Sequence record: PQ433349.1 | DNA from: Escherichia phage vB_Ec-G1 | Direction: 5' to 3' (one strand) | Length of the DNA stretch: 64,000 nt | Shown: positions 5,239-52,587 of the stretch, in pieces | How the letters are laid out: each line of letters starts with the position of its first letter | How positions within the stretch are numbered: the stretch's first letter is position 1 | Notes under the pieces: generated by a model | Told to the model about the DNA's origin: nothing | The model's input: the letters and a program-made list of their open reading frames with translations, nothing else | Database searches by the model: none | Translations under genes and position numbers: made by a program

Positions 5239-5313
5239 GGCCCTGTAGCTCAATGGGAGAGCTGTCGGCTCATAACCGATAGGTAGCTGGATCGAAACCA
5301 GCCAGGGCCACCA
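5239..5313 (+). tRNA. tRNA-Met: tRNA with CAT anticodon (Met/fMet/Ile2 not distinguishable)
   Basis: acceptor GGCCCTG/CAGGGCC, D-stem GCTC/GAGC, anticodon loop CTCATAA, T-arm GCTGG-ATCGAAA-CCAGC, CCA encoded. Confidence 0.75.
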
Positions 5314-5315
5314 AC

Positions 5316-5390
5316 GTCTTTATGGTGTAATGGATAGCACAGGAGTCTTCTAAACTCTTAGTCAAGGTTCGATTCCTTGTAAAGACACCA
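5316..5390 (+). tRNA. tRNA-Arg: tRNA-Arg (anticodon TCT)
   Basis: acceptor GTCTTTA/TAAAGAC, anticodon loop CTTCTAA, T-arm CAAGG-TTCGATT-CCTTG, CCA encoded. Confidence 0.75.
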
Positions 5391-5585
5391 GAACATTTTA
5401 ACATGAATTAGCTCAAGTGATTTGAACCCACTACTGATCATGGTGGCAGAGAATGAGGCAAGTATGTCAGACATTATAAACAAAGGCCACGGTTATATTA
5501 GAAGACATAAATGCTCGAAGAGCACCGTTCGTGGAGAACGGGGGTTGGTGGAGTCACCATTCATGGTAAAATGTTTTAAAAAACT

Positions 5586-5614
5586 ATTGACAACAAACAT
5601 TATTTTATGTTAGA
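5586..5614 (+). promoter_or_regulatory. sigma70-like promoter
   Basis: TTGACA 5586-5591, 17-nt spacer, TTAGAT. Confidence 0.5.
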
Positions 5615-5622
5615 TTATAAAT

Positions 5623-5713
5623 ATGGAAGGGCAAATCGACGTGGCGACGAAAACGGTCTTGAAAACCGCCGAGCTTGAAAGAGCCTTGGGAGTTCGACTC
5701 TCCCTCCTTCCGC
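5623..5713 (+). tRNA. tRNA-Ser: tRNA-Ser (anticodon TGA), long variable arm
   Basis: acceptor GGAAGGG/TCCTTCC, anticodon loop CTTGAAA, variable hairpin GAGC-TTGAAA-GAGC, T-arm GGGAG-TTCGACT-CTCCC, CCA; D-region spacing slightly atypical. Confidence 0.6.
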
Positions 5714-5737
5714 CAGATTGGTAGATTGGTAGATTGG
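5714..5737 (+). repeat. perfect tandem repeat (GATTGGTA)x3 spanning 5' end of tRNA-Ser(GCT)
   Basis: GATTGGTAGATTGGTAGATTGGTG read directly; second copy supplies the tRNA acceptor strand. Confidence 0.8.
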
Positions 5738-5811
5738 TGAAATGGTAGCCACAACAGTTTGCTAAACTGTAGTCGGAAACGGCGTGTAGGTTCGAGTCCT
5801 ACATCTACCGC
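5726..5811 (+). tRNA. tRNA-Ser: tRNA-Ser (anticodon GCT), long variable arm
   Basis: acceptor GGTAGAT/ATCTACC, anticodon stem ACAGT/ACTGT with loop TTGCTAA, T-arm GTAGG-TTCGAGT-CCTAC, CCA. Confidence 0.7.
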
Positions 5812-5941
5812 CAAGTTCTTTTTAATATAGCTTACTTTAATAGAGTAAATTTTCGGCAGATGGCCCCCATCATCTTACCGATACCTCATAGTTAGTGGTG
5901 CGAACACTGGCTATTTTAAAAAGAATTTAAATATTAGTATT

Positions 5942-6029
5942 TAGGTGAGTTAATTCCGTAGGGGTAGCGGGGCAGACTGTAAATCTGTTATCATTGCGAT
6001 TCGGGTGGTTCGACTCCATCACTCACCAC
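5942..6029 (+). tRNA. tRNA-Tyr: tRNA-Tyr (anticodon GTA), long variable arm
   Basis: acceptor GGTGAGT/ACTCACC, anticodon arm GCAGA-CTGTAAA-TCTGT, T-arm GGTGG-TTCGACT-CCATC, CCA; anticodon arm matches E. coli tRNA-Tyr as recalled. Confidence 0.8.
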
Positions 6030-6035
6030 CAAATT

Positions 6036-6121
6036 AAGATGAGTTGGCTGAATGGTTTAAGCAGCGGACTGTTAATCCGTGTTCGAAAGAACAATATAGG
6101 TTCGAATCCTATACTCATCGC
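6036..6121 (+). tRNA. tRNA, probable anticodon GTT (Asn) but with atypical long variable arm
   Basis: perfect acceptor GATGAGT/ACTCATC, T-arm ATAGG-TTCGAAT-CCTAT, CCA; best anticodon arm GCGGA-CTGTTAA-TCCGT; 15-nt extra hairpin GTTC-GAAA-GAAC. Confidence 0.45.
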
Positions 6122-6128
6122 CAGAATT

Positions 6129-6205
6129 ATGGACTTGTAGAGTTAAGGTAAACCCCCAGTCGCCAATAGGCTTCTGGAATTGCAGGTATCGAATCCTGCC
6201 GAGTC
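6129..6205 (+). pseudogene. tRNA-like element, probably non-functional or non-canonical
   Basis: acceptor-like GGACTTG/CGAGTCC and T-arm-like GCAGG-TATCGAAT-CCTGC (8-nt loop) but no convincing anticodon arm and no CCA. Confidence 0.3.
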
Positions 6206-6211
6206 CCAGCA

Positions 6212-6286
6212 TTGCTCCTATAGTATAATGGCTATTACAACGGTTTTGTAATCCGTGGATCTCTGTTCGATTCAGTGTGGGAGCAC
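6212..6286 (+). tRNA. tRNA-Thr: tRNA-Thr (anticodon TGT)
   Basis: acceptor GCTCCTA/TGGGAGC, anticodon stem ACGG/CCGT with loop containing TTTGTAA, T-loop TTCGATT, CCA. Confidence 0.6.
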
Positions 6287-6561
6287 CAACACAACATTAA
6301 GAGCACTGTGATTGATCGTCGTATCCTGTGCACAAGGTCTGCTCGAAAGACAGTGTTCTTAGTATTGTGTTGATCACAAAAAGAGTCACCCGAAACTTGA
6401 CCGGAGTAGGGTTGGATGGGGCAAAATGAGAAGCGGCTCTCCCATCGACAGCAACGAAGAATAATATTTGACTTTGGTTTTGTATTATTTTAAGTTAGCT
6501 TACCGAACGTAGGGCTAGTCACCCAACGGGATACTCGTCACTGTCCCAATCAATAAAAGTC

Positions 6562-6591
6562 TTGACAACAAATAGTAAAATGTAGTATAGT
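6562..6591 (+). promoter_or_regulatory. sigma70-like promoter upstream of tRNA-Gly
   Basis: TTGACA 6562-6567, 18-nt spacer, TATAGT. Confidence 0.55.
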
Positions 6592-6602
6592 AAATATATA
6601 GG

Positions 6603-6676
6603 GCGTTCTTGGTGTAGCGGTAGCATTCCGTCCTTCCAAGTCGGCGGCACGAGTTCGATCCTCGTAGAACGCTCCA
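6603..6676 (+). tRNA. tRNA-Gly: tRNA-Gly (anticodon TCC)
   Basis: acceptor GCGTTCT/AGAACGC, anticodon loop CTTCCAA, T-arm ACGAG-TTCGATC-CTCGT, CCA. Confidence 0.7.
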
Positions 6677-6772
6677 AATTATTTAATAAAGGGTTGCCAG
6701 AAAACTTTCTCTTTTACTCATGGTTTTCTCCTTCTCTCACACTTCTTCTGGTTGCCCTTCATTAAATGATTT

Positions 6773-6850
6773 ATTGGTTTGTAGTGTAGTCCGGTAGCAC
6801 ACGACACTTTGACTGTCGTAGGTTTGGTTCAAATCCAGACAGACCAGCCA
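6773..6850 (+). tRNA. tRNA-Gln: tRNA-Gln (anticodon TTG)
   Basis: acceptor TGGTTTG/CAGACCA (U1-A72), anticodon arm CGACA-CTTTGAC-TGTCG, T-arm TTTGG-TTCAAAT-CCAGA, CCA. Confidence 0.7.
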
Positions 6851-6855
6851 TATAA

Positions 6856-6932
6856 CGGAGTTTAGCTCAGTTTGGTAGAGCATACGCTTTGGGAGCGTAG
6901 GGTCGCAGGTTCGAATCCTGCAATTCCGACCA
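6856..6932 (+). tRNA. tRNA-Pro: tRNA-Pro (anticodon TGG)
   Basis: acceptor CGGAGTT/AATTCCG, D-stem GCTC/GAGC, anticodon arm TACGC-TTTGGGA-GCGTA, T-arm GCAGG-TTCGAAT-CCTGC, CCA. Confidence 0.8.
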
Positions 6933-6938
6933 ATTAAA

Positions 6939-7012
6939 TGTTTCGTAGTTCAATGGTAGAACCCACGACTGATAATCGTGAGACACAAGTTCGATTCTTG
7001 TCGAAACAACCA
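6939..7012 (+). tRNA. tRNA-Ile: tRNA-Ile (anticodon GAT)
   Basis: acceptor TGTTTCG/CGAAACA, D-stem GTTC/GAAC, anticodon arm CACGA-CTGATAA-TCGTG, T-arm ACAAG-TTCGATT-CTTGT, CCA. Confidence 0.8.
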
Positions 7013-7014
7013 GT

Positions 7015-7084
7015 TTCCCGTTAGACTTACAGGATAAGAGTTCCACAGCTTATTGTGATGCTGGTTCGAATCCAGCACGGGATA
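7015..7084 (+). tRNA. tRNA-like gene, anticodon unresolved (possible pseudo-tRNA)
   Basis: T-arm GCTGG-TTCGAAT-CCAGC and acceptor TTCCCGT/ACGGGAT (1:72 mismatch) but only a 4-bp CACA/TGTG stem with 6-nt loop where the anticodon arm should be; no CCA. Confidence 0.35.
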
Positions 7085-7090
7085 CATAAT

Positions 7091-7169
7091 AGCGGGATAG
7101 AGGAGTCTGGTCGTCCTCGCCAGTTTCATATGCTGGAGATCATCGGTTCAAATCCGATTCCCGCCTCCA
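7091..7169 (+). tRNA. tRNA-Met: tRNA with CAT anticodon, second copy (1:72 mismatch, initiator-like feature)
   Basis: acceptor AGCGGGA/TCCCGCC, D-stem GAGG/CCTC, anticodon arm CCAGT-TTCATAT-GCTGG, T-arm ATCGG-TTCAAAT-CCGAT, CCA. Confidence 0.65.
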
Positions 7170-38732: not shown

Positions 38733-41700
38733 ATGGCAACATTCCCAACATATCCAGCAACGTCTCTCGAACAGGGCGTAGACCTGGTTATTTTCTCATC
38801 TAACCAACTCCATGATGTTATTAATGGAAGTGCTACAGAGAGTATTGAAACAGAATCAGGGTTGATACCAACCCTGAGAAAAGCCCTTGTTGACAACTTT
38901 TTCTTTAAAAGCCCATTGGATTGGGCGCAAGGCACAAACGAAACAGTTTTTAACCAACTTCGTTATTTCCAGAATGGAGTATTGAGCGGTTATTACTATG
39001 CCCCTAACGCTACATTGGTTAACCCAATCCCTATGCAAGGGACTCCAGTAGGAGATAACAACTGGGTATTGTGGGGACTGAAAACAGAACAATTAGCAAC
39101 AGAAGTCACCCCGTGGGTATACTCTGGTGCAACGGGTTATGAAACAGTAATTAGTCCTCCTTACATCTTTGATAGTGCTATTGTTACGATCAATGGTGTT
39201 ATTCAGGTTCTGGGGGAAGCTTTCCGTATAGAAGATAGTAAGATCATCCTATCTGAACCTTTGGGACACGATCCTGCAACAGGACTGCCAAACAAGCTTT
39301 TTGCTTACATTGGTAAAATCGTAGCTTCCGCAGATACAGATCCTAACCTAGAGAACCGTCTTGTCAGTTTAGAAACAAAAACGGAAGAACTAACAGAAAG
39401 CATGGATAAAGTCCCTCTGCAAACTATTGCTCGTAAATATGGTTTGTTAGATGATGAGGTGGCTTACGCAACAGCAGGTCAATCGTTAACAGGGATTAAA
39501 GCTCTGTATGATCCAGTAGCACAGTCTTCCTACACATTACCTCCTAACATCACAGGAACTTTAACATCCTTGTCTGTTTCTGGAGTAATGACTTATTCTG
39601 GGGGGTCTGTAGATCTTTCTGCACTAGCTGTTGAACGTGGACAGTTTGTTCATTTGCCTACAAGCTTTGGTAATAACGTAACTCTGACAGCTAAAAATCA
39701 GACGATTGGACGTGGTGCTGGTCGTTATCGTTGGGCTGGAAGTTTACCAAAAAGTATTTTGGCCTCCGATACATTGGAGACAAGTGGTGGATTAGGTCCA
39801 AATGCATGGGTTCTGACCAATACAGAAGGACTGTTAACCCCTCGTGGTGGAACATACAACGATTTATTCGATGTTGTCTACTTGTCAGAATTTGCTAACA
39901 ACACAACAACATATACCACACCAGAAGCAGCTTTCCAAGCGGCACTGTTAGCAGCAAAAGCTTCGAAAAGCAAGATTCTCGATGCTTACGGTTGCGATAT
40001 GACTTTCACGACAAGCTCTTTTGATATTCAAGGTATCACTTTGCGTGGGGGTGTGTTCCGTGGTCAACGCGACTATCGTGTGCAAAATGCTACAGTAGAA
40101 GGCACAACTTTCCGTAACTCTCGTGTTATGTATTGGGGTGGTGCTGTGCGCATGTTCGATTGTTTGTGGGACGGTGCTCCTCGCGCAGGTCAAGTTGGTA
40201 GCTTGGTATTCCAAGGCAACCCAATATCAGGTACTTTTGAAATTGATAATTGTACTTTTAAAAACGGGTTGTATGGCATCCTTCAACAAGGAACAGGGGA
40301 ACCAGTAACACGTGGTGTCTTCCGTAACCTTACCTTCATGGACATGCAAGGTGATGCAATAGAACTGAACGTCATCAATAAACATTATGACGATGGTTGT
40401 GTGATTGAGAATATTTACCTGTCTAATATCGATGGGACTAACGCTCCTATTCCTCTGTCCAACTGGGGTATCGGTATCGGTGTAGCTGGTAAAGGACCAT
40501 ATGGTTACGGAATCCCTGATGATCAATATTGCAAGAATATTACAATTCGTAACGTTTTTGCAAAACGTTGTCGTCAGATTGTCCACGTAGAAGTTGGTCG
40601 TAATATCTCTATCGAAAACATTCATGGCGATCCAGACCAGACCGTATCTGTTGGGACAGGTTTGGCAACTGGCGCAGTTGTAATGTACGGAAGTAAAGAT
40701 TTTACGATTGACGGTGTTTACGGAGAGCCTAAAACAGACGGTAGCACACTTGCAAGTAATATCCGTATGATTTATTTGGAGTGGGGAACTAACGCAGTTC
40801 TGGACGGAGAGGGTAATCCGGTAGTTCCGGCACAGGGTAGACCTTCAAACCCATGCTTTAACTATTCTGTTCGTAATATTCATACCAAAACTGGACGTGT
40901 TTTTGCGGGAGTTTCCGCTGGGCCAGGTTATGAAAACAGAGTTAGCTTTGAAAATATTCGTTGCGCTGCATTGCAGTTGTTCGGTATAGCTTCTTGGCTT
41001 TCAATGTCTAACATCACCTGTAATATCTTCGATTGTGTTGGTCAACCTGAATCTGGTCCAGGGACATTTTATGATGGATTCTTCCGTAGAGAAAAATCTG
41101 TTCTTGAAATGGTTAACGTAAACTGTTACCCAGATGGCAAGACGATGGTTACTGGTCGTCCACAGTGGAGCCGTTGCCGTTACTCGGATATTCATCGTGT
41201 CAACTGTAATGTTGAAGCTAATATGTATACCAATATCGCAGGTGGTATTGGAGCTATTGTAGGGACAACGGGCAAAGTTTATTACTTAGAGCCTAATCCT
41301 AGTCGAAACATTGATGGAATGCATTTCCCAACAGGGAAAGAGTTTGACAAAGGGGATATGATAGTCAAGGCGGATAATACGTTCTTCCTTGTAACAACAA
41401 GTGGGGCATATATTCCAGATATCCCAGCTTTCGGTATTCGAGCTACACAGGCAGGAGATACCTTCCTGACACAGAACTTGACTCCTAACGGGACAGCAAC
41501 AAATGCTTCTTGGTTGTATCATTACCCTCTGTCAGCAGGGACACGTATCCGTATTCCTGGTGCTGGCGTAGGTGGAGCAGATTTGGACACAGTTATTACT
41601 CGTGCACCTTATCAAGATAATGATACGTGGACTAACCCAGTTAAAATAGACATTGCAGATCCAATTGTAACGCCTACAAGTGCTGGAGTTAGAATTAAAA

Positions 41701-41786
41701 CCATACCTAATGATTCCAGTAATGTTTCTGTAGGTAATACTGCGGTTATTCGCCCAACGCCAGTAGTAGATGTGCCAACAACCTAA
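38733..41786 (+). CDS. large tailspike/fibre with parallel beta-helix repeats (second putative depolymerase)
   Basis: 1017 aa; repeated beta-helix-like rungs (NCTFKNGLYGIL..., NLTFMDMQGDAIELNV..., IENIYLSNIDG..., NITIRNVFAKRCRQIVHVEVG...). Confidence 0.6.
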   Translation: MATFPTYPATSLEQGVDLVIFSSNQLHDVINGSATESIETESGLIPTLRKALVDNFFFKSPLDWAQGTNETVFNQLRYFQNGVLSGYYYAPNATLVNPIPMQGTPVGDNNWVLWGLKTEQLATEVTPWVYSGATGYETVISPPYIFDSAIVTINGVIQVLGEAFRIEDSKIILSEPLGHDPATGLPNKLFAYIGKIVASADTDPNLENRLVSLETKTEELTESMDKVPLQTIARKYGLLDDEVAYATAGQSLTGIKALYDPVAQSSYTLPPNITGTLTSLSVSGVMTYSGGSVDLSALAVERGQFVHLPTSFGNNVTLTAKNQTIGRGAGRYRWAGSLPKSILASDTLETSGGLGPNAWVLTNTEGLLTPRGGTYNDLFDVVYLSEFANNTTTYTTPEAAFQAALLAAKASKSKILDAYGCDMTFTTSSFDIQGITLRGGVFRGQRDYRVQNATVEGTTFRNSRVMYWGGAVRMFDCLWDGAPRAGQVGSLVFQGNPISGTFEIDNCTFKNGLYGILQQGTGEPVTRGVFRNLTFMDMQGDAIELNVINKHYDDGCVIENIYLSNIDGTNAPIPLSNWGIGIGVAGKGPYGYGIPDDQYCKNITIRNVFAKRCRQIVHVEVGRNISIENIHGDPDQTVSVGTGLATGAVVMYGSKDFTIDGVYGEPKTDGSTLASNIRMIYLEWGTNAVLDGEGNPVVPAQGRPSNPCFNYSVRNIHTKTGRVFAGVSAGPGYENRVSFENIRCAALQLFGIASWLSMSNITCNIFDCVGQPESGPGTFYDGFFRREKSVLEMVNVNCYPDGKTMVTGRPQWSRCRYSDIHRVNCNVEANMYTNIAGGIGAIVGTTGKVYYLEPNPSRNIDGMHFPTGKEFDKGDMIVKADNTFFLVTTSGAYIPDIPAFGIRATQAGDTFLTQNLTPNGTATNASWLYHYPLSAGTRIRIPGAGVGGADLDTVITRAPYQDNDTWTNPVKIDIADPIVTPTSAGVRIKTIPNDSSNVSVGNTAVIRPTPVVDVPTT

Positions 41787-41848: not shown

Positions 41849-43873
41849 ATGAATTTAACAAGACCTAATAGTGCGATAGCCGATCTGGTAGAAGCTACTT
41901 ATCGAAAACGTCGCAGCTTTGAGGCAGGTTTTACATTACGTAATTCCCGTGAAGTTTTGCTGTTAGCAGCAGAAGGGAATTATTACCAATGGAAAGGAAC
42001 TTTTCCTAAAGTAGTTCCAGCAAACTCTACGCCAGCCACCACAGGTGGTATTTCTTCCCTTGCATGGCAAAGTGTTGGGACCGCTGATGATATAGCAATT
42101 ATCAATGCCAAGTTTACGGCAATGCAGCAACAGATTGATGATCTGTCGGAAACAATACCTGAAGCTGGTAAATCGGCTTATCAGATCGCACTTGATAATG
42201 GTTTTGTTGGAACAGAAGCACAATGGCTTGCTTCTTTGAAAGGGGATACTGGTGCTCAACTTAATATTAAAGGATCATTAGCAAGCACTAGTGAACTACC
42301 ATCCACAGGTAACGTTGCAGGGGATGGTTATATCGTAGGTGATGTAATCTACGCTTGGGATGGTTCTGTTTGGAAACTTATTTCTTCTCTTGGGCCAGAA
42401 GGTAAATCAGCTTACGAGGTATGGTTGGCAGATGGTAATACAGGATCTGTTTATGATTTTCTTACCTCTATAAAAGGTGATAAAGGCGATGTTGGTCCTA
42501 CAGGGCCACAGGGAGCACCTGGTGTTAACGCCAACGGTTTTGATTATCGTGGGGATTTGCCTTCTACAAGTAACTTACCACAACCTAACTCTGAAAACGT
42601 AAGCCAAGCTTATTCTATCAATGGTAATCTTTATGTCTCTAATGGGACAGCTTGGGTCAACATGGGTAATATTGTTGGTCCTCAAGGTCCACAAGGTGAG
42701 GCAGGTAAAGACGGTCTAGATGGAACAGATGGGGATGAAGGGAAATCTGCATATCAAAGTTGGCTGGATGCTGGTAATGAAGGGACAGAAGTAGATTTTA
42801 TTGCCTCACTTAAAGGTCCAAAAGGAGACAAGGGTGATCAAGGAGAGCGAGGTCCACAAGGTGAACTAGGTCCACAAGGACCAGTGGGTGCAACAGGATC
42901 AGGCTTAGAGATTATCGGGGTTCTGAACAGTGAAGCTGAACTTCCTCCTACTGGAGAAGTAGGTGATGCATATAAAATTAATAATGATTTGTATGTTTGG
43001 GTTCAAGATGCTACGGAATGGATGAATGTTGGCAGTCTTGGAGGAACATCAATTACAGCTAAAGGTCATGTTCCGAACAGTGAAGCTCTCCCTGTTTATA
43101 ATAACTATGGTGATGCCTACTTAACTGAAGATACTAGTAATCTTTACATCTATACCTACGATCAAGACACCAATTCCGCATCTTTTGTTGACATGGGAAG
43201 TATTAAAGGCGACAAAGGTGAAAAAGGGGATAAAGGAGATAAGGGTGATCCTGGAACAAACGGAACCAACGGTACTAATGGGACCAACGGTAAGGACGGC
43301 GCACAGTGGTTTGTAGCAACAACTAATCCAGTCGCAGGTGATGGTGTTATCAATGATTACGCTTTCAATACTACCACTGGGGCAGTGTTTAAGAAAACAG
43401 ATTCTTCTACGTGGACACTTATAGGAACTCTTCCTAGTATACCAGAAGCCCCTCAAGATGGCTTGACGTATGGTCGTTCTGATGGAAACTGGATCGAAAT
43501 ATCAGGATCAGATCCTACGGAAGCTATAACACCAACTAGAGTTACAGCAGGTTTCATGGAACTTGAAACAACTACTGCCAACTCTGGAGCATCTTGGACT
43601 CCTTCTGGAACTTCCAATATGTATGTTGTTACAGTAACTGATGCTCTGACAGTTGGAGCATGGCCTGGTGTCACTGGCTCTACAAAACCTAAAGCGTTTT
43701 CAGCAATGATTTATTTGATTCAAGATACAACGGGACACACGGTTACACTAGATGCGTCTTATGGAGCACTAAATGATACAGAAATAGCAACTGCTGCTAA
43801 CGCAGTAACAATTTTGCAATTAACGTATCCTGGTGTGGGTGATATCGTGGACATGGTTGTTGTAACACGATAA
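41849..43873 (+). CDS. collagen-like tail fibre protein
   Basis: 674 aa; Gly-X-Y runs (GPQGPQGEAGKDGLDGTDGDEGK; GDKGEKGDKGDKGDPGTNGTNGTNGTNGKDG) and three ~30-aa repeats GKSAYxxWLxxGxxG...SLKG. Confidence 0.7.
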   Translation: MNLTRPNSAIADLVEATYRKRRSFEAGFTLRNSREVLLLAAEGNYYQWKGTFPKVVPANSTPATTGGISSLAWQSVGTADDIAIINAKFTAMQQQIDDLSETIPEAGKSAYQIALDNGFVGTEAQWLASLKGDTGAQLNIKGSLASTSELPSTGNVAGDGYIVGDVIYAWDGSVWKLISSLGPEGKSAYEVWLADGNTGSVYDFLTSIKGDKGDVGPTGPQGAPGVNANGFDYRGDLPSTSNLPQPNSENVSQAYSINGNLYVSNGTAWVNMGNIVGPQGPQGEAGKDGLDGTDGDEGKSAYQSWLDAGNEGTEVDFIASLKGPKGDKGDQGERGPQGELGPQGPVGATGSGLEIIGVLNSEAELPPTGEVGDAYKINNDLYVWVQDATEWMNVGSLGGTSITAKGHVPNSEALPVYNNYGDAYLTEDTSNLYIYTYDQDTNSASFVDMGSIKGDKGEKGDKGDKGDPGTNGTNGTNGTNGKDGAQWFVATTNPVAGDGVINDYAFNTTTGAVFKKTDSSTWTLIGTLPSIPEAPQDGLTYGRSDGNWIEISGSDPTEAITPTRVTAGFMELETTTANSGASWTPSGTSNMYVVTVTDALTVGAWPGVTGSTKPKAFSAMIYLIQDTTGHTVTLDASYGALNDTEIATAANAVTILQLTYPGVGDIVDMVVVTR

Positions 43874-43875
43874 CA

Positions 43876-43900
43876 GAAGCCCCGAAAGGGGCTTTCTTTT
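43876..43900 (+). terminator. rho-independent terminator
   Basis: GAAGCCCC-GAAA-GGGGCTTTC then TTTTT. Confidence 0.7.
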
Positions 43901-43914
43901 TATGGAGGGTTTAA

Positions 43915-46587
43915 ATGTTTCCAATTCCAATATTTACTATTATGACCAGCACTGGTGTCGTTCCTCTGCCAGCAGGTATTGTTAAAAAAGTAATTACTTT
44001 AGATTACCCAGATAACGCTGGTAATTCTAACAGCAGTTTAGCAATTTTGCTTAATGATGGTAGATTGTTTACTCAAGGTGCAAACCTCTTTGGTGAGATT
44101 GCAGATGGAACTCGTAGTGCACGATTCAATAATTTCCACTTAGCTTCTACTGTAGTAGCAGATGTGTTTACCGCAGATCGTTGTTTTGTTATTAAAACTA
44201 ACAGTGGGGGATGGCAATATTCAGGATTGACAGCAGGGTTGGTAGGATCTATAGCAGCAGGTGGTACGGATGCATGTGTAACTACTTGGACCAGCTTTCC
44301 ATCTGTGATAACAGGGACTATTTCTTTAGCCAATCTTAAAGAGGTTAAAGGAGGGTATAACAATACTCTCTGGTTAATGAATAGCGGCGTTCTTTATGGA
44401 TCGGGTCAAAACACAGTAGGCAGTTTAGGTGCAAGTACTACTAACGAAGTTTCTACTCCTCGTCAGATAACAAGCGCAGCAGTTGCTTTTGATGCAGGTT
44501 ACAACCAATGCTCTTATGTCAACAATGTGGGAACCTTGCGTGTTTGTGGAGCTAGTAAAGGTTTAGCAGGTAATAATAACACAACAACAGCTTTTGTCAA
44601 TGCCAAGATATCCGCTACTGAAACAGTGTATGTCAAAGATTACATCAATACAGTTTCCCAGACAATAGTTGTAGGAGATACCTCCGGTGGCACGGGTACA
44701 GTAAACTACTTATATGTTAGATCTAATACAGAAACAACCTACACTAAACTGGATACCTTTGCAGCAGGTTTCTCAACATGGAAGTTTCCACCAAGCCGCC
44801 ACTCTTTTTTCGTTGGGATCAATAATTCCTTGTGGGCTATTGGTAAGAACTACACTGCAAACTTAGGTTTGGGGTATGATTCTGCGAGCGGAGATCCACT
44901 CCAAGTGGGAAAACCAGTTAAACCTGAAGGAGTGGGTTCCTGGGATATAAACAAGCTCACAAGCGTTCATACGCTGAATATGGATGTTACTAACCAATTA
45001 GGTTATCAAGGAACCTTTTTCGTTTATAATGGAGATATGTATTATTCCGGTATTTGGAAAGATGGGAAAGCCTCGTATCTGTTCAATAGTGGTCTAAACT
45101 ATAATAAATTCACACCAATAGCAAGCTCCGTGATTACGGGTGATATTCTGGCAACTGGTTTAACTACAGATTCTTTAGGAATTTGTATTGTAGGTGGAAC
45201 TAAACAGTTGACACATTCTGTTAGCCCAGAAGGAGGTAAACTTTTCAATATTAAATACACTTCTTCTGCCCCTCCAAACATGACAATATCATCTACTGGT
45301 TTAATGACTTTCCATGCAGAAGGTGGTTTTGATGCAGGTATGACAGCCTTAAACGCTGAAGGAACAACTTTATCAGATACCTCTGGAGGATATGCTTCAA
45401 CATTGAGCGTTTACACCCCTAGCTTATCTGCGATGGATGTAGGAACAACACAAACAATGGTAGCAGAAATAACACCAACAGGAGCAGCAAGCTTACCTGA
45501 TATGGTTGTTGAGTATACAACTACAGATCCTAATGTTGCTACAGTAGATCCTACAACTGGTGTAATAACTGGTGTTGGTGATGGTGGTTGTAGGATTGGT
45601 TGCACAGCTACGTATCAAGGTGTTGTTACCGCTTCTGATAGTTCTTATTTAACGGTGAATGCTGTTGCGGGAAAGGAGTTAGCTCCATCTCCGAGTAGTA
45701 GTTTAACGGTTCTAAACGGATATTTCAACCACTCGGCAGATGGGGCAATTACGTTCCCAACTTTATCGGGTACTGTTACACCAGCTAACTTTGTAGTTAA
45801 GGTGGATGACGTTGTAGTTCCTTCAAGTAAAGTAATATTTAGAAACAAAGCTTTCTCTACAGTGGATAGTTATCCAGCAGGAGAATATAGACTGACTATT
45901 GAATTTGCAAGTGCTTCAGTAGTTAATAGTGTGGAAGTGTCTATGGAAGCAAACCCAAGTCTTTTAGAACTTTGGGGCGGTAATAGAATCAGTTATTCTA
46001 CAAGCCCAGCCTCACAATTCTTAAAAGGTTGTGCTAACTTAAGACGAATAACTTCTGATTGTTTTAGTAACACATCTTACACCGGAACATCTATAAGCGG
46101 TATCTTCTCTGGCTGCACAAGTTTGACAGCTATCCCTGAAGGATTATTCAGTGATGCTTTATTTCCTTCAATGACAACAATGTCAAGCACGTTTGAAGGT
46201 TGTACATCTTTAACATCTATTCCTTCAGATTTATTTAAGAATCTGTCAAAAGTTACAAGATATTCTTACACCTTTAAAGATTGCACCTCTCTTGCAGAAG
46301 TTCCAGCAGGAATGTTTGATAATATTCCAACGAAAGTGACCTCTTTAACAGCTACATTCCAAGGTTGTTTAGGACTTACAGATTTTAATAAGATCTTTAA
46401 TGACAACCCAGGGTTAACTGTTTGTGGTAAACGTGGAGCATTATCTTCTTTCTTTAGTGGATGCACAAATCTTACAGGAACAGGAACAACATTAACAAAT
46501 ACATTAGGCGGAGTAGCTAATAGTTACCTATTCAGGTATTGCACAAAACTTTCTGATTATAACAACATTCCTTCGGGTTATAAATAA
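43915..46587 (+). CDS. tail fibre / receptor-binding protein with Ig-like (Big_2-like) region and C-terminal BspA-type leucine-rich-repeat-like units
   Basis: 890 aa; C-terminal repeats FSGCTSLTAIP, FEGCTSLTSIP, FKDCTSLAEVP, FQGCLGLTDF, FSGCTNLTG; upstream DPNVATVDPTTGVITGVGDG Ig-like signature. Confidence 0.6.
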   Translation: MFPIPIFTIMTSTGVVPLPAGIVKKVITLDYPDNAGNSNSSLAILLNDGRLFTQGANLFGEIADGTRSARFNNFHLASTVVADVFTADRCFVIKTNSGGWQYSGLTAGLVGSIAAGGTDACVTTWTSFPSVITGTISLANLKEVKGGYNNTLWLMNSGVLYGSGQNTVGSLGASTTNEVSTPRQITSAAVAFDAGYNQCSYVNNVGTLRVCGASKGLAGNNNTTTAFVNAKISATETVYVKDYINTVSQTIVVGDTSGGTGTVNYLYVRSNTETTYTKLDTFAAGFSTWKFPPSRHSFFVGINNSLWAIGKNYTANLGLGYDSASGDPLQVGKPVKPEGVGSWDINKLTSVHTLNMDVTNQLGYQGTFFVYNGDMYYSGIWKDGKASYLFNSGLNYNKFTPIASSVITGDILATGLTTDSLGICIVGGTKQLTHSVSPEGGKLFNIKYTSSAPPNMTISSTGLMTFHAEGGFDAGMTALNAEGTTLSDTSGGYASTLSVYTPSLSAMDVGTTQTMVAEITPTGAASLPDMVVEYTTTDPNVATVDPTTGVITGVGDGGCRIGCTATYQGVVTASDSSYLTVNAVAGKELAPSPSSSLTVLNGYFNHSADGAITFPTLSGTVTPANFVVKVDDVVVPSSKVIFRNKAFSTVDSYPAGEYRLTIEFASASVVNSVEVSMEANPSLLELWGGNRISYSTSPASQFLKGCANLRRITSDCFSNTSYTGTSISGIFSGCTSLTAIPEGLFSDALFPSMTTMSSTFEGCTSLTSIPSDLFKNLSKVTRYSYTFKDCTSLAEVPAGMFDNIPTKVTSLTATFQGCLGLTDFNKIFNDNPGLTVCGKRGALSSFFSGCTNLTGTGTTLTNTLGGVANSYLFRYCTKLSDYNNIPSGYK

Positions 46588-46589
46588 GA

Positions 46590-46619
46590 AAAGGAGCCAT
46601 TTGGCTCCTTTCTTTTATT
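46590..46619. terminator. bidirectional terminator between convergent late and replication blocks
   Basis: AAAGGAGCC-ATTT-GGCTCCTTT flanked by A-run on one side and T-run on the other. Confidence 0.7.
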
Positions 46620-46651
46620 CAGCGTTCAACCTCATACACTTGAAACAAACC

Positions 46652-47578
46652 TTAGAAGCAATGCAGGAAGTTTCTACCATATTGCAGTCCAATAGGGGCA
46701 AATGGAATATCATCATCGAAGTCCATTGGAGGTTCTTCTTGATTACTTGGTTCTGGTTGTGGTTCAGGTTTCTTCTCTTCTTTCTTCTCTTCTTTCTTAG
46801 GTTGTTCTGCGGAACCACGAATGGCAGCAGCAACTTTATCAGACAGAGCCAGAACTTTACGAGCAGAATCAATCAGATCTTCTACAGATACAGTCTTAAT
46901 GGTATGGTCTTTACAAGCATTGAGAATAGCGTGACCAACAGATGCCCCAAGATCATAATCATTAATATCAACGCCACGAGATTCAGCAATTTCAGATTTC
47001 AGCGTGACAGTTGCAGATTGAACAACCCCAGCGATATCGAAAGCATCGCCTTTAACACCATTACGAATCAGTTCCAGTGCACCATTTACTGCGTGACCAG
47101 TTTCCAGACCTACAGTATCACGTTTTTTATAGGACTGTTTAGGAGCAGCATCGTTGGAACCTTTATTGCCAGAAGATTTGTTAGACTTCTGAACACCATC
47201 GGTAGACAATACTGTAATACGAGATTTTTTAGTATTGTAGTAAGTTTTACCGCCTTTATTATCAACGCGATCAATATCAATACTTACTTCTACACCTTTT
47301 TCAATAGTGATCCAATTATCACCTTCTTTGACTTGCAGGTTTTCATAACCTTCTTTCAGTTCAATATCACCAAGAGAAATCCAAACACCTTTCTCATCTG
47401 GTTTAGCACCTTTCTCTTTCAGAACAAGAGAAGCTCGGTGAGTTGAAACAATCGTTTTTCCTTCCCAATGAAAAGTTTTAGGTTCAGCGAATTTATCCAG
47501 TTTAACGTAGTCTACGATACCAGTTGCATAAGTTACGGTTTTGCCTTTACGATCAGTTTCAGTATTAATTACGGACAT
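46652..47578 (-). CDS. ssb: single-stranded DNA-binding protein
   Basis: 308 aa; OB-fold-like N-terminus, Gly/Lys-rich linker, acidic C-terminal tail ending DFDDDIPF; RBS GAGGAGA. Confidence 0.8.
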   Translation of the reverse strand: MSVINTETDRKGKTVTYATGIVDYVKLDKFAEPKTFHWEGKTIVSTHRASLVLKEKGAKPDEKGVWISLGDIELKEGYENLQVKEGDNWITIEKGVEVSIDIDRVDNKGGKTYYNTKKSRITVLSTDGVQKSNKSSGNKGSNDAAPKQSYKKRDTVGLETGHAVNGALELIRNGVKGDAFDIAGVVQSATVTLKSEIAESRGVDINDYDLGASVGHAILNACKDHTIKTVSVEDLIDSARKVLALSDKVAAAIRGSAEQPKKEEKKEEKKPEPQPEPSNQEEPPMDFDDDIPFAPIGLQYGRNFLHCF

Positions 47579-49254: not shown

Positions 49255-52200
49255 CTAGTGACAGGACGCCCAGGAGTTACCCACATCATATCCGGCAGTA
49301 AGCTGAACATTAAGATTGTAAAATTCTCCAGCCTTAGTAACAGCTAAAGCAGCAAGTTCACCTGCCCGACTATAGGCTGTAAACCATCCACCTTTGGGAG
49401 ATTCATGAATGTTAGCCCAAATTTGCCCTGTCTCTTTTTCCTTATTATGCTTCCATTCTTCAACTTTAGCAAGGCATTCTTTATCAATTTTCTTTTGTTC
49501 TTCAGGATCGTCTACTTTCTTCCAACCTAATGATTCAGGTGAAAACCATTTAAATTCTACAAGGTTACGAGAAACTTCAAGCTGGGCTTCATCGTGATAT
49601 GCAATCATTTGTTGCACGAAGTCTTTATTCTTCCAGTCATCTTTAAAGAAGTCAACACTTAGCCCTTCTTCTTCGATCATGTCGTCATAAATAACCATTG
49701 CACGTTTAGCACAGATAACCCCACCACTTTGGAACAGAGAGTTAAGAATCGCGTGAGCAGAACGAGTAGGAACCTTACGACCGTCAATACCCAAAACATA
49801 CTGTTTACCAGTCTTAACCCAGAAATCGTTTAAACGTTCTTTAAGACGCGCCAGTGGGAATGCAGCTTCCCAGAAAGCATCGAACACCAACTGACCTGTA
49901 AACTTATCGCTACCAATTGTTTTAGCAACCTTGTCGGCTTGTGCACCATAAGTAATACCATACTTAACAGATTTAGCAGGACTACGTTCAAATTTACGTC
50001 CAATAGTTTCAGTGATACGTTTTGCCATCATTGTGTGAACATCATTAGGTTTCTCTAACAACAGAGCGTTACAATATTCATGTGGCTCCGGCTCGTACCG
50101 CCAACAGTTTCCTGTGATGGTAATGCAGTCTTTCTGACGCATGACCCACGTACCAAGTTCTGTTTGTGGACACCAAACATCCTCTACACCCCACTCTTCA
50201 ATAGTCAAACTTTGAACAGGAATGTGAGAGCGGTTAGCCAATGTTACCACTTTTACTTTCTGCTCTTTTGTATTGAAAGCTACAGAGATATTGCCTCCAT
50301 GCACCAGGTACGAGGCAGTTAAAGCTGCTTCAAAAAGTTCACCTGGGTTCTGCGCCCAACGCCAAACAGGTTTTTGTTTATGTTCATGCCAGTAACCATC
50401 TGCAATCAAGAAACCTTCCAAGAAAGCTACACGCTCGGCATGAGACATATTAACTACACGCTCTACCCACGGAACATCCCATTTACCTTGTTGAACAGAA
50501 GTTAAACTATTTACCTGATCTTGTTCCATGTTAAATGGAGCATTACAAATAATATTATCTCCTGTGCAAAGCTCGGCAGTTGTTCTGACTTTAGGCACAT
50601 AAGTATTCCCTTTACTACGGGTATTAACATACCAACGGTGATCTGCTGTTGCACGGTAAGTGTGTGATTTCCCTTTAATCTCAAACGTCTTACTATTTTT
50701 ATAGAAGACCTTACCTTTTACTTTAGTCCATTCTTTCAGACCTGTTTCAGCATTGTACCCTAAAATCTCATCCCCTTCCTTCAGGTCGTGATATCCTACC
50801 CAACCTTTACGAGTCAAAGCTTGAGCATCCATCGGCACACAGTAGTGTGACTCAATCTTTGCTTCCAAAGAGTCGAAGTCATAACCGATCTGGAAGTATT
50901 TAGGAACTTCTACACCAAACAAGTTACGCATCTCCCATCCAAACAAAGATGTGACACGAGGAATATTAGCTACAGATCTATGTTTCATACGAGAGGTTGC
51001 AGCATCACATGTAGCGGCTGGGGTAGGAATACGCCCATCTGCCCTTACTGCGGCTAAGAAACCTTTATCGTATTCTTGATCTTCTTCATCTTCTTCCCAA
51101 TCAGCACCGCCACCTAAAATAGAGTTCCTACGATGCTTATACGTTAAGTATTCTACAATCTGTGTAGCATAGGGAAATTTCTCACCCAAAGCTTGCAAAT
51201 TGGGACAGATTTCTTTTTCCTGACCTTTGGTAAAACATGGGTTAGTCAATACTTTAAGACCGCGACCTTTACCTTTTGCTATACGCTCTTGAATCTTCCT
51301 TTCCAAGGTTTCCGGTGTGCACTCCAGATGATCACAACGGTCCTGACAAAAATTAGAAGATAAAGTTTGCTCAACGTAAGCTCGAATACCTTTCTGAAGT
51401 TCTTCCTCACTCTTTTTAATCTTGGTGCCAGATTTAAGAGTCAAATCTTTATCTTTATATTCTGATGGTACCCAACCTAATCCTACAAGCCAGTTTTTAA
51501 TATGGGTTGTATCGTTCAATGTTGCAGGGATGTTAGGATCACACAGAGGCTCATCTGCTGCAACTGGCAGTTTCCACTCTTTCCCCAACATAACTAACCA
51601 CCAATCGCCATCCCTCTCTTCCAAATGACCATCATGTTTCTTAGCAAAATTGATCATATGGTTAGTTGGTTCTAGGTTCTTTTTAATTTGCAATTTAGGC
51701 GGAATAAAAGCTTTAAGATAACCTTTTGTTGCTGGTTTAGGTGGCAAAATAGGCTCAACGAGTAAACGAAGACGCTCCATTTCTGCATCCAAAAAAGCAA
51801 GGTTCTCTTCTGCTTGTTTCATGTTAAAAGCAAACCCACGGTGTTCCTGGCGTGTAATAATGTCTGCTACACGTTGTTCAAGTTCAAATGGACCTTCCCA
51901 TTTATCATAATCACCCCATTCTTCCATAAGGTAATTATATACGCTCGTATTGGCTTTGTTGTCATAGATACAGTAATAAAGCATATCCGCAGCAAAAGTC
52001 TTAAATCGATCTTCTTCTGGAATCTCTTTACGGAAATCTATTTTTACATCACCACCTGCTTTTCGAGAAAGTGCTGCCAAGCTATGTCCTGATTTGCCCT
52101 CAATCTTTCGATCTGGGTTTAACACTTTACTCAAAATCAAGGAGTCAATAAGTTTTACCTTATTTTTGCCCCACGTATTATATTTAACACTGTAATCTAA

Positions 52201-52587
52201 TCCATAAAACAGTTTTGTAGCCAACCAGTCGTAGTTGATACCGTTGTGAGCCACAGCCATTTCAACCAGATATTCAGGCTTGTCTTTAAAATAACCTTCA
52301 TGATTAATAAAATCTGGGAAATCTTTTAGTTGAAAATGCGTGTAATCTTGCGCCACATACTCTTTAAGAACATATGTGTATTTACCATCTGACTCTTCAT
52401 AAGGACGCCCATCAAAGATGTATTTAGGGCCATCGTGGAAAGCTACTATTTCTCCTGTTTCATGGTTCTCTAAGACAATACAGTGCATTTGAAATGTGTC
52501 TTTGAGACGATAAGGACTAGCTAAATAATCAATAGTGTCATTATTCAACAATCCGTTTGCTTCAATATCCCATGTAAACTTACTCAC
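49255..52587 (-). CDS. family A DNA polymerase with 3'-5' exonuclease domain, intein-containing precursor
   Basis: 1110 aa; exo motif DIEANGL; motif A GYDFDSLEAKIESHY, motif B RSPAKSVKYGITYG, motif C YHDEAQLEV; GTG start after AAAGGAGG. Confidence 0.9.
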   Translation of the reverse strand: MSKFTWDIEANGLLNNDTIDYLASPYRLKDTFQMHCIVLENHETGEIVAFHDGPKYIFDGRPYEESDGKYTYVLKEYVAQDYTHFQLKDFPDFINHEGYFKDKPEYLVEMAVAHNGINYDWLATKLFYGLDYSVKYNTWGKNKVKLIDSLILSKVLNPDRKIEGKSGHSLAALSRKAGGDVKIDFRKEIPEEDRFKTFAADMLYYCIYDNKANTSVYNYLMEEWGDYDKWEGPFELEQRVADIITRQEHRGFAFNMKQAEENLAFLDAEMERLRLLVEPILPPKPATKGYLKAFIPPKLQIKKNLEPTNHMINFAKKHDGHLEERDGDWWLVMLGKEWKLPVAADEPLCDPNIPATLNDTTHIKNWLVGLGWVPSEYKDKDLTLKSGTKIKKSEEELQKGIRAYVEQTLSSNFCQDRCDHLECTPETLERKIQERIAKGKGRGLKVLTNPCFTKGQEKEICPNLQALGEKFPYATQIVEYLTYKHRRNSILGGGADWEEDEEDQEYDKGFLAAVRADGRIPTPAATCDAATSRMKHRSVANIPRVTSLFGWEMRNLFGVEVPKYFQIGYDFDSLEAKIESHYCVPMDAQALTRKGWVGYHDLKEGDEILGYNAETGLKEWTKVKGKVFYKNSKTFEIKGKSHTYRATADHRWYVNTRSKGNTYVPKVRTTAELCTGDNIICNAPFNMEQDQVNSLTSVQQGKWDVPWVERVVNMSHAERVAFLEGFLIADGYWHEHKQKPVWRWAQNPGELFEAALTASYLVHGGNISVAFNTKEQKVKVVTLANRSHIPVQSLTIEEWGVEDVWCPQTELGTWVMRQKDCITITGNCWRYEPEPHEYCNALLLEKPNDVHTMMAKRITETIGRKFERSPAKSVKYGITYGAQADKVAKTIGSDKFTGQLVFDAFWEAAFPLARLKERLNDFWVKTGKQYVLGIDGRKVPTRSAHAILNSLFQSGGVICAKRAMVIYDDMIEEEGLSVDFFKDDWKNKDFVQQMIAYHDEAQLEVSRNLVEFKWFSPESLGWKKVDDPEEQKKIDKECLAKVEEWKHNKEKETGQIWANIHESPKGGWFTAYSRAGELAALAVTKAGEFYNLNVQLTAGYDVGNSWASCH
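50107..50841 (-). mobile_element. intein (245 aa) with LAGLIDADG-type homing endonuclease motif in DNA polymerase
   Basis: insert starts Cys583 right after motif A, has TxxH-like TADH, LEGFLIADG, ends ...ITITGN827 followed by Cys828; separates motifs A and B. Confidence 0.75.

What the first reader, a model, noticed from the sequence alone, without database searches (positions are those of the whole stretch)
43915..46587. Tail protein with bacterial Ig-like region and BspA-type leucine-rich-repeat-like C-terminus
The last large late gene carries at least five C-terminal repeats of the form F.GCTSLT.IP / F.DCTSLAEVP, which resemble BspA-type leucine-rich repeats of bacterial surface adhesins, preceded by a Big_2-like signature. 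LRR modules are uncommon in phage receptor-binding proteins. This may be an adhesin-type receptor-binding domain acquired from bacteria, possibly determining host range.
Basis: partly seen in the sequence, partly recalled or inferred. Interest (0 to 1): 0.6.

Follow-up and report, generated by a model that had tools for sequence, protein, structure and literature searches.

The report
Phage side-fibre protein with LRR tip
The last tail gene of this E. coli phage encodes a bead-on-a-string protein (propeller, two Ig-like domains, a β-sandwich and a leucine-rich-repeat tip), and the tip is a swappable cassette that probably binds a cell-surface ligand, although no binding has been shown.

Summary

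The window is a Phapecoctavirus, about 98.8% identical to ESCO5/REC. The gene is already in more than 60 genomes as "tail protein" (PHROG 11922; "TfpM1" in one paper), with no domain-level description found.

About half of close relatives replace aa 585–890 with an unrelated GTA head-spike-fibre domain. More distant orthologues carry a canonical DUF285 module. A published phenotype co-varies with the allele (yhaH versus flhD dependence), but it is confounded.

Most likely this is an exchangeable ligand-binding tip of an accessory side fibre. Bacterial origin and host-range control remain unproven, and both alleles grow on the same strains.

The parts
43876..43895 (+). Terminator-like hairpin between the upstream collagen-like fibre gene and this gene
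   Evidence: Pattern scan: 8-bp stem with 5 GC pairs, followed by a T-run. This is a consensus match only.
43904..43909 (+). Shine-Dalgarno sequence GGAGGG, 5 nt upstream of the ATG
   Evidence: Read directly from the sequence. ESCO13 has an annotated RBS at the equivalent place.
43915..46587 (+). Whole gene, 890 aa plus stop. It is the 'tail protein' of PHROG 11922, called 'TfpM1' in PMC12695924.
   Evidence: ORF list. phrog_11922 matches at E=0 over aa 1-890. The gene is 98.8% nt identical to ESCO5 gp226 and to the REC gene.
43930..45117 (+). RCC1-like seven-bladed beta-propeller (aa ~6-401)
   Evidence: Pfam RCC1 PF00415 scores 24.1 bits against a cutoff of 21.7, and WD40_RLD gives 8.4e-11. 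The family profile against PDB gives HERC2 RLD 8.6e-14, UVR8 6.7e-12 and RPGR 1.9e-11. The AF2 model has 28 strands, i.e. 7 blades of 4 strands, with pLDDT mostly above 85. aa 1-185 are about 41% identical to the N-terminus of the Vequintavirus 1875-aa lateral tail fibre protein.
45142..45666 (+). Two tandem Big_2 Ig-like domains (aa ~410-496 and ~497-584)
   Evidence: Pfam Big_2 scores 33.9 bits against a cutoff of 22.8, in 2 stretches. The AF2 model shows two all-beta domains here. This region is 60% identical to the Big_2 region of the syntenic Justusliebigvirus protein.
45667..45699 (+). Hinge and allele junction (aa 585-595)
   Evidence: aa 585-588 is the only internal segment with pLDDT below 50. 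Protein identity to ESCO13 collapses at exactly aa 585.
45700..45984 (+). Beta-sandwich linker domain (aa ~596-690), part of the swapped cassette
   Evidence: The AF2 model has strands at aa 598-686. Foldseek gives local matches to the CBA120 TSP4 N-terminal domain (7rej), the cyanophage A4 tail (9k09_U) and the HRP29 tail. These matches are weak, with E above 0.1.
45985..46584 (+). LRR solenoid (aa ~691-890): seven 26-32-aa repeats with an F..C..L core, plus a helical C-terminal cap ending C-TKLSDY-NIPSGYK
45517..46700 (.). Approximate extent of the DNA cassette that differs from the alternative (ESCO13/phAPEC8) allele
   Evidence: Pairwise DNA alignment. Synonymous divergence starts after 45516, the sequences are unrelated from about 45667, and identity resumes at about 46700 inside the 3' end of the convergent SSB gene.
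46590..46611 (.). Bidirectional terminator-like hairpin between this gene and the convergent SSB gene
   Evidence: Pattern scan finds it on both strands, with a 9-10 bp stem.

Best explanation
The gene encodes an accessory side-fibre or adhesin protein of a Phapecoctavirus, built like a bacterial surface adhesin rather than a trimeric fibre. From N to C it has an RCC1-like seven-bladed propeller, two Big_2 Ig-like stalk domains, a flexible hinge, a small beta-sandwich, and a seven-repeat LRR solenoid of the BspA/DUF285 branch at the distal tip.

Shown here: the domain architecture, the LRR fold (by prediction), homology to bacterial BspA/DUF285 surface proteins, and the fact that sandwich plus LRR form one exchangeable cassette joined at aa 585.

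Inferred: the N-terminal propeller, whose first ~185 aa are shared with Vequintavirus fibres, docks the protein on the baseplate or fibre complex. The Ig domains act as a spacer. The LRR tip binds a ligand on the bacterial surface through its concave beta-sheet face. This tunes adsorption on particular strains without being essential on laboratory hosts.
For: Architecture.

Tail context: the gene is the last in the tail-fibre locus, after a colanidase-like spike and a collagen-like fibre that both carry Tail_spike_N anchors.

Exchangeable tip: 33 phage records carry the full-length LRR allele. About 31 share aa 1-584 at 97-98% identity but carry a GTA head-spike-fibre domain instead (NF048003, 3.7e-21). 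More distant orthologues carry a canonical DUF285 module or another tip. The junction coincides with the only low-confidence hinge in the model.

Module portability: the same sandwich-plus-LRR unit occurs behind Big_2 alone and fused to a Tail_spike_N anchor.

Surface variability: among LRR-type alleles, the variable positions alternate with conserved core positions around the modelled beta-strand. Offsets -8, -6 and -4 are variable, and -9, -7 and -3 are conserved.

Phenotype: PhiWec188/190 (LRR allele) need yhaH, and PhiWec179/181/186 need flhD; GTA-spike-allele carriage was verified here only for PhiWec181, and for 179/186 it rests on the paper's statement that fibre proteins are conserved within the group (PMC12548472, PMC12695924).
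Against: No virion proteomics, microscopy or binding data for this protein were found.

Both alleles were isolated on the same hosts: K-12 MG1655 for tuntematon, ukendt and nepoznato (LRR) versus nieznany (GTA-spike), and APEC BEN4358 for REC versus ESCO37. The tip is therefore dispensable or redundant on those strains.

The Wec phenotype correlation is confounded, because a second fibre gene (TfpL) also differs between the groups. YhaH is an inner-membrane protein and cannot be a direct surface ligand.

The sequence scores below the curated cutoffs of LRR_5, DUF285 and TIGR02167.

Foldseek against PDB was weak, with best E 0.05.

The oligomeric state and the attachment point are pure inference.
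Confidence: 0.6

Rival explanations
1. The protein is a virion decoration that binds the animal environment rather than the bacterium. On this view its Ig-like and LRR domains adhere to mucus or extracellular matrix of the gut, in the manner proposed for Hoc-type Ig-like domains, and so concentrate phage where hosts live.
For: The Big_2 Ig-like domains and a BspA-type LRR are both typical of bacterial adhesins that target eukaryotic matrix (domain; the adhesin function is background knowledge). These phages come from gut, faeces and sewage. Both alleles grow on the same laboratory and APEC strains, so the tip is not needed for infection in vitro.
Against: The gene sits inside the tail-fibre locus, not the head module. 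The alternative tips are a GTA head-spike-fibre domain and DUF285 modules, which are interchangeable on the same scaffold in the way receptor-binding tips are. A bacterial gene requirement co-varies with the allele.
Confidence: 0.12
2. The LRR module is a protein-protein docking or assembly element inside the phage's branched fibre complex. It would hold another fibre or act as a scaffold, rather than bind an external ligand.
For: LRR domains are generic protein-interaction modules (background knowledge). The neighbouring genes carry CBA120-type Tail_spike_N anchors, which are used to build branched complexes (PMC11414711 title and abstract).
Against: The module is at the extreme C-terminus, after a hinge and a stalk. 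It is replaced wholesale by unrelated folds in sister phages whose neighbouring fibre genes are unchanged. A docking site would have to co-evolve with its partner. Variability concentrates on alternating strand positions, as on a ligand-binding face.
Confidence: 0.08
3. The repeats are a conventional phage fibre fold, such as a beta-helix, a triple beta-helix or a collagen-like fold, and the resemblance to LRR is superficial.
For: The scores against LRR_5, DUF285 and PARCEL are all below the curated cutoffs. Foldseek against PDB is weak.
Confidence: 0.03

Closest known systems
BspA-type (Pfam LRR_5) cell-surface LRR proteins of gut bacteria, e.g. PDB 4fs7 (BACOVA_04585), 4gt6 and 4h09
   Different: The repeat period here is 26-32 aa, and 27 aa in the closest homologues, which is longer than I recall for BspA-type repeats (from memory, not checked here). 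The window sequence reaches only 20.6 bits against the LRR_5 cutoff of 27.7. The domain is attached to a phage tail scaffold, not to a secreted or lipoprotein bacterial protein.
[quoted passage not shown]
   Same: Homologues at 33-43% identity carry DUF285. The terminal cap C.KL..Y..IP..[WY]K is shared. The repeat length is similar. Divergent orthologues of this same phage protein carry a canonical DUF285 tip.
   Different: The window sequence is below both cutoffs, at 16.3 against 25 bits and 21.9 against 30 bits. It lacks the FxQDISxWN motif seen in the DUF285-type orthologues. No nucleotide-level repeat was found.
The alternative allele of the same gene in phAPEC8, ESCO13 and PhiWec181 (891 aa)
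   Same: aa 1-584 are 97-98% identical. The locus position, length and hinge are the same.
   Different: The distal 307 aa are unrelated and match the GTA head-spike-fibre domain NF048003 at 3.7e-21. That module also occurs on a different scaffold in Justusliebigvirus.
Vequintavirus (rV5-like) 1875-aa 'lateral tail fiber protein with intimin domain', and the short 565-609-aa forms in PVP-SE1/GAP31-like phages
   Same: The rV5-like protein is the syntenic last gene of the lateral-fibre locus, and its N-terminal ~185 aa are about 41% identical. The short forms share the propeller and Big_2 region at 38-44% identity.
   Different: The rV5-type protein continues into a long Ig-like stalk. The short forms stop after Big_2 and have no distal module. 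Neither has the LRR tip.
Internalins of Listeria (LRR plus Ig-like inter-repeat domain), as a functional analogue only
   Same: They combine an LRR ligand-binding solenoid with Ig-like domains on a surface-displayed protein (background knowledge).
   Different: The domain order is reversed, the LRR subfamily is different, and no homology was claimed or tested.

Membership tests
Leucine-rich-repeat fold (LRR superfamily) | Tandem 20-30-aa repeats with a conserved hydrophobic and Cys/Asn core pattern | tested here: met
   There are seven [FL]..C..L units spaced 26-32 aa apart. None of 20,000 shuffles reached the observed count.
Leucine-rich-repeat fold (LRR superfamily) | Curved solenoid with one short beta-strand per repeat forming a parallel sheet | tested here: met
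BspA-type LRR (Pfam PF13306 LRR_5) | HMM score at or above the gathering cutoff (27.7 bits) | tested here: not met
   The score is 20.6 bits, E 4.3e-4, on aa 690-890.
BspA-type LRR (Pfam PF13306 LRR_5) | Significant homology to bona fide members | tested here: met
   Of 101 aligned homologues, 37 hit LRR_5, with best E 3e-102. The profile hits 4fs7 at 1.8e-24.
DUF285 / PARCEL repeat (PF03382, TIGR02167) | HMM score at or above the curated cutoffs (25 and 30 bits) | tested here: not met
   DUF285 scores 16.3 bits and TIGR02167 scores 21.9 bits. Even so, 36 of 101 homologues hit DUF285.
DUF285 / PARCEL repeat (PF03382, TIGR02167) | Repeats recognisable at nucleotide level (palindromic amphipathic repeat coding elements) | tested here: not met
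   TRF finds no array with a period near 84 nt in 45600-46650. No dedicated palindrome test was done.
Big_2 bacterial Ig-like domain (PF02368) | HMM score at or above the gathering cutoff (22.8 bits) | tested here: met
   The score is 33.9 bits, E 3.1e-8, in two stretches. The model shows two Ig-like sandwiches at aa ~410-582.
RCC1-like beta-propeller | RCC1 repeat HMM above cutoff, and a seven-bladed propeller | tested here: met
   PF00415 scores 24.1 bits against a cutoff of 21.7. The profile against PDB gives HERC2, UVR8 and RPGR at 1e-11 to 1e-14. The model has 28 strands, i.e. 7 blades of 4. The whole-domain model PF25390 is below its cutoff, at 42 against 150 bits.
Phage receptor-binding / tail-fibre protein | Encoded in the tail-fibre gene cluster, with allelic variation concentrated in the C-terminal domain | tested here: met
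Phage receptor-binding / tail-fibre protein | Physically present in the virion and binds a host surface receptor | not testable with these tools
   No proteomic or binding data were found in the papers read.
Canonical trimeric fibre or spike folds (beta-helix, triple beta-helix, collagen, Tail_spike_N anchor) | Presence of such domains | tested here: not met
   None was hit in this protein, whereas both upstream neighbours have Tail_spike_N and collagen or beta-helix domains.

The most novel reading that the evidence does not exclude
TfpM1 may be a monomeric fibre built like a bacterial adhesin, which would make it an exception to the rule that phage fibres are trimers. On this reading its RCC1-like propeller plugs onto the tip of the neighbouring collagen-like trimeric fibre, and its LRR tip recognises a protein rather than a glycan, either on the cell surface or in the gut. 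The natural in-frame deletion that joins the collagen fibre's anchor directly to the LRR cassette would then be a shortened but still connected version of one serial fibre.
Probability: 0.15. Interest if true: 0.65.

Novelty: new variant of a known kind. Interest (0 to 1): 0.4.

Why it matters
Phapecoctaviruses are among the broadest-host-range coliphages and are candidates for therapy and biocontrol. It is still unknown which gene of their "Swiss-army-knife" fibre set does what.

This analysis gives the last fibre gene a concrete architecture. It defines a precise swap junction at aa 585, at a predicted hinge. It also lists at least four natural alternative tips: the BspA-like LRR, a canonical DUF285 module, the GTA head-spike-fibre domain, and one other. 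Together these make a ready design for testing what the tip binds and for host-range engineering by cassette exchange.

An experimentally confirmed LRR receptor-binding tip would, as far as my searches found, be the first characterised in a phage. That would link phage adsorption to the very large BspA/DUF285 family of bacterial surface proteins, whose ligands are mostly unknown.

Tried and rejected
1. Direct Pfam and NCBIfam scans of the whole protein and of the C-terminus gave only sub-threshold LRR_5, DUF285 and PARCEL hits. Family membership by score alone is therefore rejected.

3. Composition and codon usage of the cassette show no foreign signal: GC 0.357-0.409 against 0.395 for the window, and GC3 is low as in the neighbours. 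This gives no support for recent acquisition.

4. Looking up the organisms of the NCBI-sourced homologues returned only one name (Phocaeicola sp.), so no taxonomic origin could be argued.

5. Searches for virion proteomics or functional work on this gene found nothing specific in the rV5, O177, APEC and Korf papers.

6. Literature searches for an LRR, BspA or DUF285 domain on a phage tail fibre found only annotation-table mentions, for example Vibrio jumbo phage pir03.

7. I suspected that the 15-aa SSB C-terminal extension was part of the LRR cassette. This is rejected, because ESCO5 has the LRR allele with a canonical SSB tip.

8. I suspected that the P0001 fusion was an assembly artefact. 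This is unlikely, because the longest exact k-mer shared by the two genes is 11 nt.

9. I suspected that the 216-aa ORF upstream of the propeller-less relative was a split-off propeller. This is rejected, because it shows no similarity.

10. TRF found no DNA-level repeat array.
Full report
**Observation**

The ORF is exactly as stated: 43915..46587 on the + strand, 890 aa. A GGAGGG ribosome-binding site lies 5 nt upstream of the ATG.

The C-terminal 200 aa contain seven copies of [FL]..C..L, with Cys at aa 706, 734, 763, 790, 818, 850 and 876. The spacing is 26-32 aa. The strict motif F..C..L occurs six times. In 20,000 shuffles the mean was 0.06 and the observed count was never reached. The repeats are invisible to Tandem Repeats Finder at DNA level, so they are old and diverged. 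Big_2 passes Pfam's cutoff, at 33.9 against 22.8 bits in two stretches. The repeat count of "at least five" was an underestimate.

**Identity of the window**

The gene is 98.8% nt identical to Escherichia phages ESCO5 and vB_EcoM_REC, and 95-98% identical to about 30 further phages. These belong to Phapecoctavirus, Stephanstirmvirinae.

The gene is the last of the tail-fibre locus. The order upstream is baseplate genes, a short fibre and its chaperone, a colanidase-like spike (38733..41786), and a collagen-like fibre (41849..43873). It is followed by a bidirectional terminator-like hairpin and the convergent SSB and replication genes.

GenBank calls it "tail protein" or "hypothetical protein". 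It matches PHROG 11922 over its full length. One paper names it TfpM1 (890 or 891 aa) and notes that it is absent from Justusliebigvirus, but gives no domain analysis.

**Architecture**

A full-length AlphaFold model has mean pLDDT 88.6. Its pTM is 0.57, which indicates flexible inter-domain geometry. The model shows five parts:

- aa 7-401: 28 beta-strands, which fits seven four-stranded blades.
- aa ~410-582: two Ig-like sandwiches.
- aa 585-588: the only internal low-confidence stretch.
- aa 598-686: a beta-sandwich.
- aa ~700-890: a solenoid with one short strand per repeat and a helical cap.

The propeller is RCC1-like. Pfam RCC1 scores 24.1 against a cutoff of 21.7 bits. A profile of the orthologues hits the HERC2 RLD (8.6e-14), UVR8 (6.7e-12) and RPGR (1.9e-11) in PDB.

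**Is the C-terminus an LRR?**

Direct profile scans say "probably", but every score is below threshold:

| Family | Score (bits) | Cutoff (bits) | E-value |
|---|---|---|---|
| LRR_5 (PF13306) | 20.6 | 27.7 | 4.3e-4 |
| DUF285 (PF03382) | 16.3 | 25 | 8.6e-3 |
| PARCEL (TIGR02167) | 21.9 | 30 | 1e-4 |

Three independent lines settle the fold.

1. Homologues. A database search with aa 585-890 found 198 relatives. The bacterial-type ones are 33-43% identical, with E down to 1e-53. Of 101 aligned sequences, 37 pass as LRR_5 and 36 as DUF285. They share the terminal cap C.KL..Y..IP..[WY]K.

2. Profile against PDB. The best hits are the BspA-type surface proteins 4fs7 (1.8e-24) and 4gt6 (2.4e-21).

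Foldseek against PDB also ranked LRRs first, but weakly.

An exhaustive search shows that the module belongs to a very large family: 18,497 cluster representatives at E<=1e-3 and 974 at E<=1e-30. Many are 1,000-7,400-aa proteins with 5-26 matched blocks.

**The tip is an exchangeable cassette**

Among close relatives, 33 phage records carry the whole protein. About 31 share aa 1-584 at 97-98% identity and then diverge completely.

Their 307-aa tip matches NCBIfam "GTA head spike fibre domain" at 3.7e-21. It is the allele of the type phage phAPEC8, of ESCO13 and of PhiWec181. It also occurs on another scaffold in Justusliebigvirus.

At DNA level the cassette runs from about 45,517 to about 46,700. 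The protein junction at aa 585 coincides with the predicted hinge.

More distant orthologues of the same propeller and Big_2 scaffold carry a canonical DUF285 tip with FxQDISxWN motifs, or another tip altogether. PVP-SE1/GAP31-like phages stop after Big_2.

The sandwich-plus-LRR unit also moves between N-terminal contexts:

- One ~128-kb phage contig encodes it behind Big_2 alone, preceded by an unrelated 216-aa ORF.
- One assembled phage contig carries an in-frame fusion of the Tail_spike_N anchor of the collagen-like fibre to aa 568-890. The two genes share no exact word longer than 11 nt, so an assembly collapse is unlikely. The junction shows imperfect microhomology.

Between Phapecoctavirus and the "Wecvirus" group, the LRR module is 89-91% identical while the scaffold is only 76-85% identical. 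This suggests recent exchange or stronger constraint.

**Hints about function**

Among 12 distinct LRR-type alleles, the conserved repeat positions are offsets -9, -7, -3 (F), -1 (G), 0 (C), +3 (L), +7 (P) and +10. The variable positions are -8, -6, -5, -4, -2, +4, +8 and +12. Around the modelled strand (offsets -8 to -6), variable and conserved positions alternate. This is expected if solvent-facing concave-sheet residues diversify over a fixed core. The inference comes from a small sample and a predicted structure.

Published genetics show that PhiWec188/190 lose infectivity on a yhaH mutant. PhiWec179/181/186 lose it on flhD. All five need waaT. I verified that PhiWec188/190 carry the LRR allele and that PhiWec181 carries the GTA-spike allele.

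This is a correlation only. A second fibre gene also differs between the groups. YhaH is an inner-membrane protein, and flhD is pleiotropic.

Against a strict host-range switch, phages of both alleles were isolated on K-12 MG1655 and on APEC BEN4358.

**Origin**

The family is overwhelmingly made of bacterial-style surface proteins, and one of the top homologues lies in an ordinary bacterial chromosomal context. Another top homologue, however, lies in a phage-like contig beside a BACON protein and a second DUF285 protein. About 20 phage proteins in BFVD share the fold. They come from gut metagenomic phages, crAss-like viruses, cyanophages, Bacillus phage G and Klebsiella phage Eowyn. Other phages also give tblastn hits.

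The cassette has no compositional anomaly. "Acquired from bacteria" is therefore plausible in the long run, but it is neither recent nor demonstrated.

**Mechanism proposed**

The following is inferred, except where it is marked as shown above. The propeller docks the protein on the fibre or baseplate complex. Its first ~185 aa are the only part shared with the syntenic 1875-aa Vequintavirus fibre. The Ig-like domains act as a stalk. The hinge gives reach. The LRR tip binds a surface ligand through its concave face and modulates adsorption on some strains.

None of the domains is a typical trimerisation fold, unlike the two neighbours, which carry Tail_spike_N and collagen or beta-helix domains. 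The protein may therefore be monomeric, like a bacterial adhesin. This could not be tested.

**Novelty and verdict**

The gene is already present in more than 60 deposited genomes, and LRR- or BspA-annotated phage proteins exist in databases. What is new is the domain-level reading: an RCC1-like propeller, two Big_2 domains, a sandwich and a BspA/DUF285-like LRR. Also new are the precise cassette junction and the set of alternative tips.

I found no paper describing an LRR receptor-binding tip on a phage fibre. The literature library is limited to open-access papers.

I rate it a new variant of a known kind, namely a modular phage fibre with a swappable binding tip, of moderate interest. The structural claims carry high confidence. 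The functional claim carries about 0.6.

Noticed in passing
window 41849-42067 joined to 45616-46587; locus L006 8001-9191: A public assembly (SRR10359460, 21-kb contig) carries a natural in-frame deletion of about 3.5 kb. It fuses the first 73 aa (Tail_spike_N anchor) of the collagen-like fibre directly to aa 568-890 of this protein, giving a 396-aa anchor-plus-LRR mini-fibre. The junction has imperfect microhomology (CAA|GTGTTG..ACCGCT). The two genes share no exact word longer than 11 nt, so an assembly artefact is unlikely.
   Followed up: partly
window 46652-46699 (- strand, 3' end of the SSB gene 46652..47578): The SSB ends ...DFDDDIPF followed by 15 extra residues (APIGLQYGRNFLHCF). ESCO5, ESCO13 and the fusion contig end at the canonical acidic tip DDDIPF. 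The extended form is shared with Justusliebigvirus ALITA. This is local mosaicism, and it may bury the C-terminal tip that SSB partner proteins normally bind.
   Followed up: partly
window 49255-52587 (- strand): The family-A DNA polymerase is 1110 aa, against 861 aa in a related phage (L007). The extra ~250 aa (roughly aa 590-840) begin with C and end with ...GNC, which looks like an intein or Hint-type insert. Pfam reported only DNA_pol_A at aa 845-1009.
   Followed up: partly
window 38733-41786 and 41849-43873: Both upstream fibre genes carry the CBA120-type Tail_spike_N (TSP1/Gp66) domain. In the 1017-aa colanidase-like spike it lies internally, at aa 302-361, behind a ~300-aa N-terminal region. 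This is the layout of the branching adaptor spikes of Ackermannviridae and suggests a branched fibre complex.
   Followed up: no
locus L007 3929-6076 (SRR17660019 contig, 128 kb): A more distant relative encodes the Big_2, sandwich and LRR unit (55% identical) as a 494-aa protein without the RCC1 propeller. It is preceded by an unrelated 216-aa ORF with no Pfam hit. The N-terminal end of this fibre is therefore modular as well.
   Followed up: partly
window 45667-46584 compared with Wecvirus-type orthologues (P0125, P0127, P0130-P0133): The swapped cassette is more conserved (89-96% in the sandwich, 89-91% in the LRR) than the propeller and Big_2 scaffold (76-85%) between Phapecoctavirus and the proposed Wecvirus group. 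This is the reverse of the usual pattern for receptor-binding tips and hints at recent horizontal spread of the cassette.
   Followed up: partly
window 5239-7169: There is a cluster of 10 tRNA genes on the + strand: Met, Arg, Ser, Asn, Thr, Gly, Gln, Pro, Ile, Met. This matches the 10-13 tRNAs reported for the genus.
   Followed up: no
proteins P0004 and P0006 (locus L003 8001-9587): The best bacterial-type homologues of the LRR module begin with a prepilin-like hydrophobic N-terminus (MKK..NAITLLALVITIVIMLLLAGVAIQ), so this LRR type may also be displayed on pilin-like proteins. The contig is an ordinary chromosome with many unusually short gene calls.
   Followed up: no
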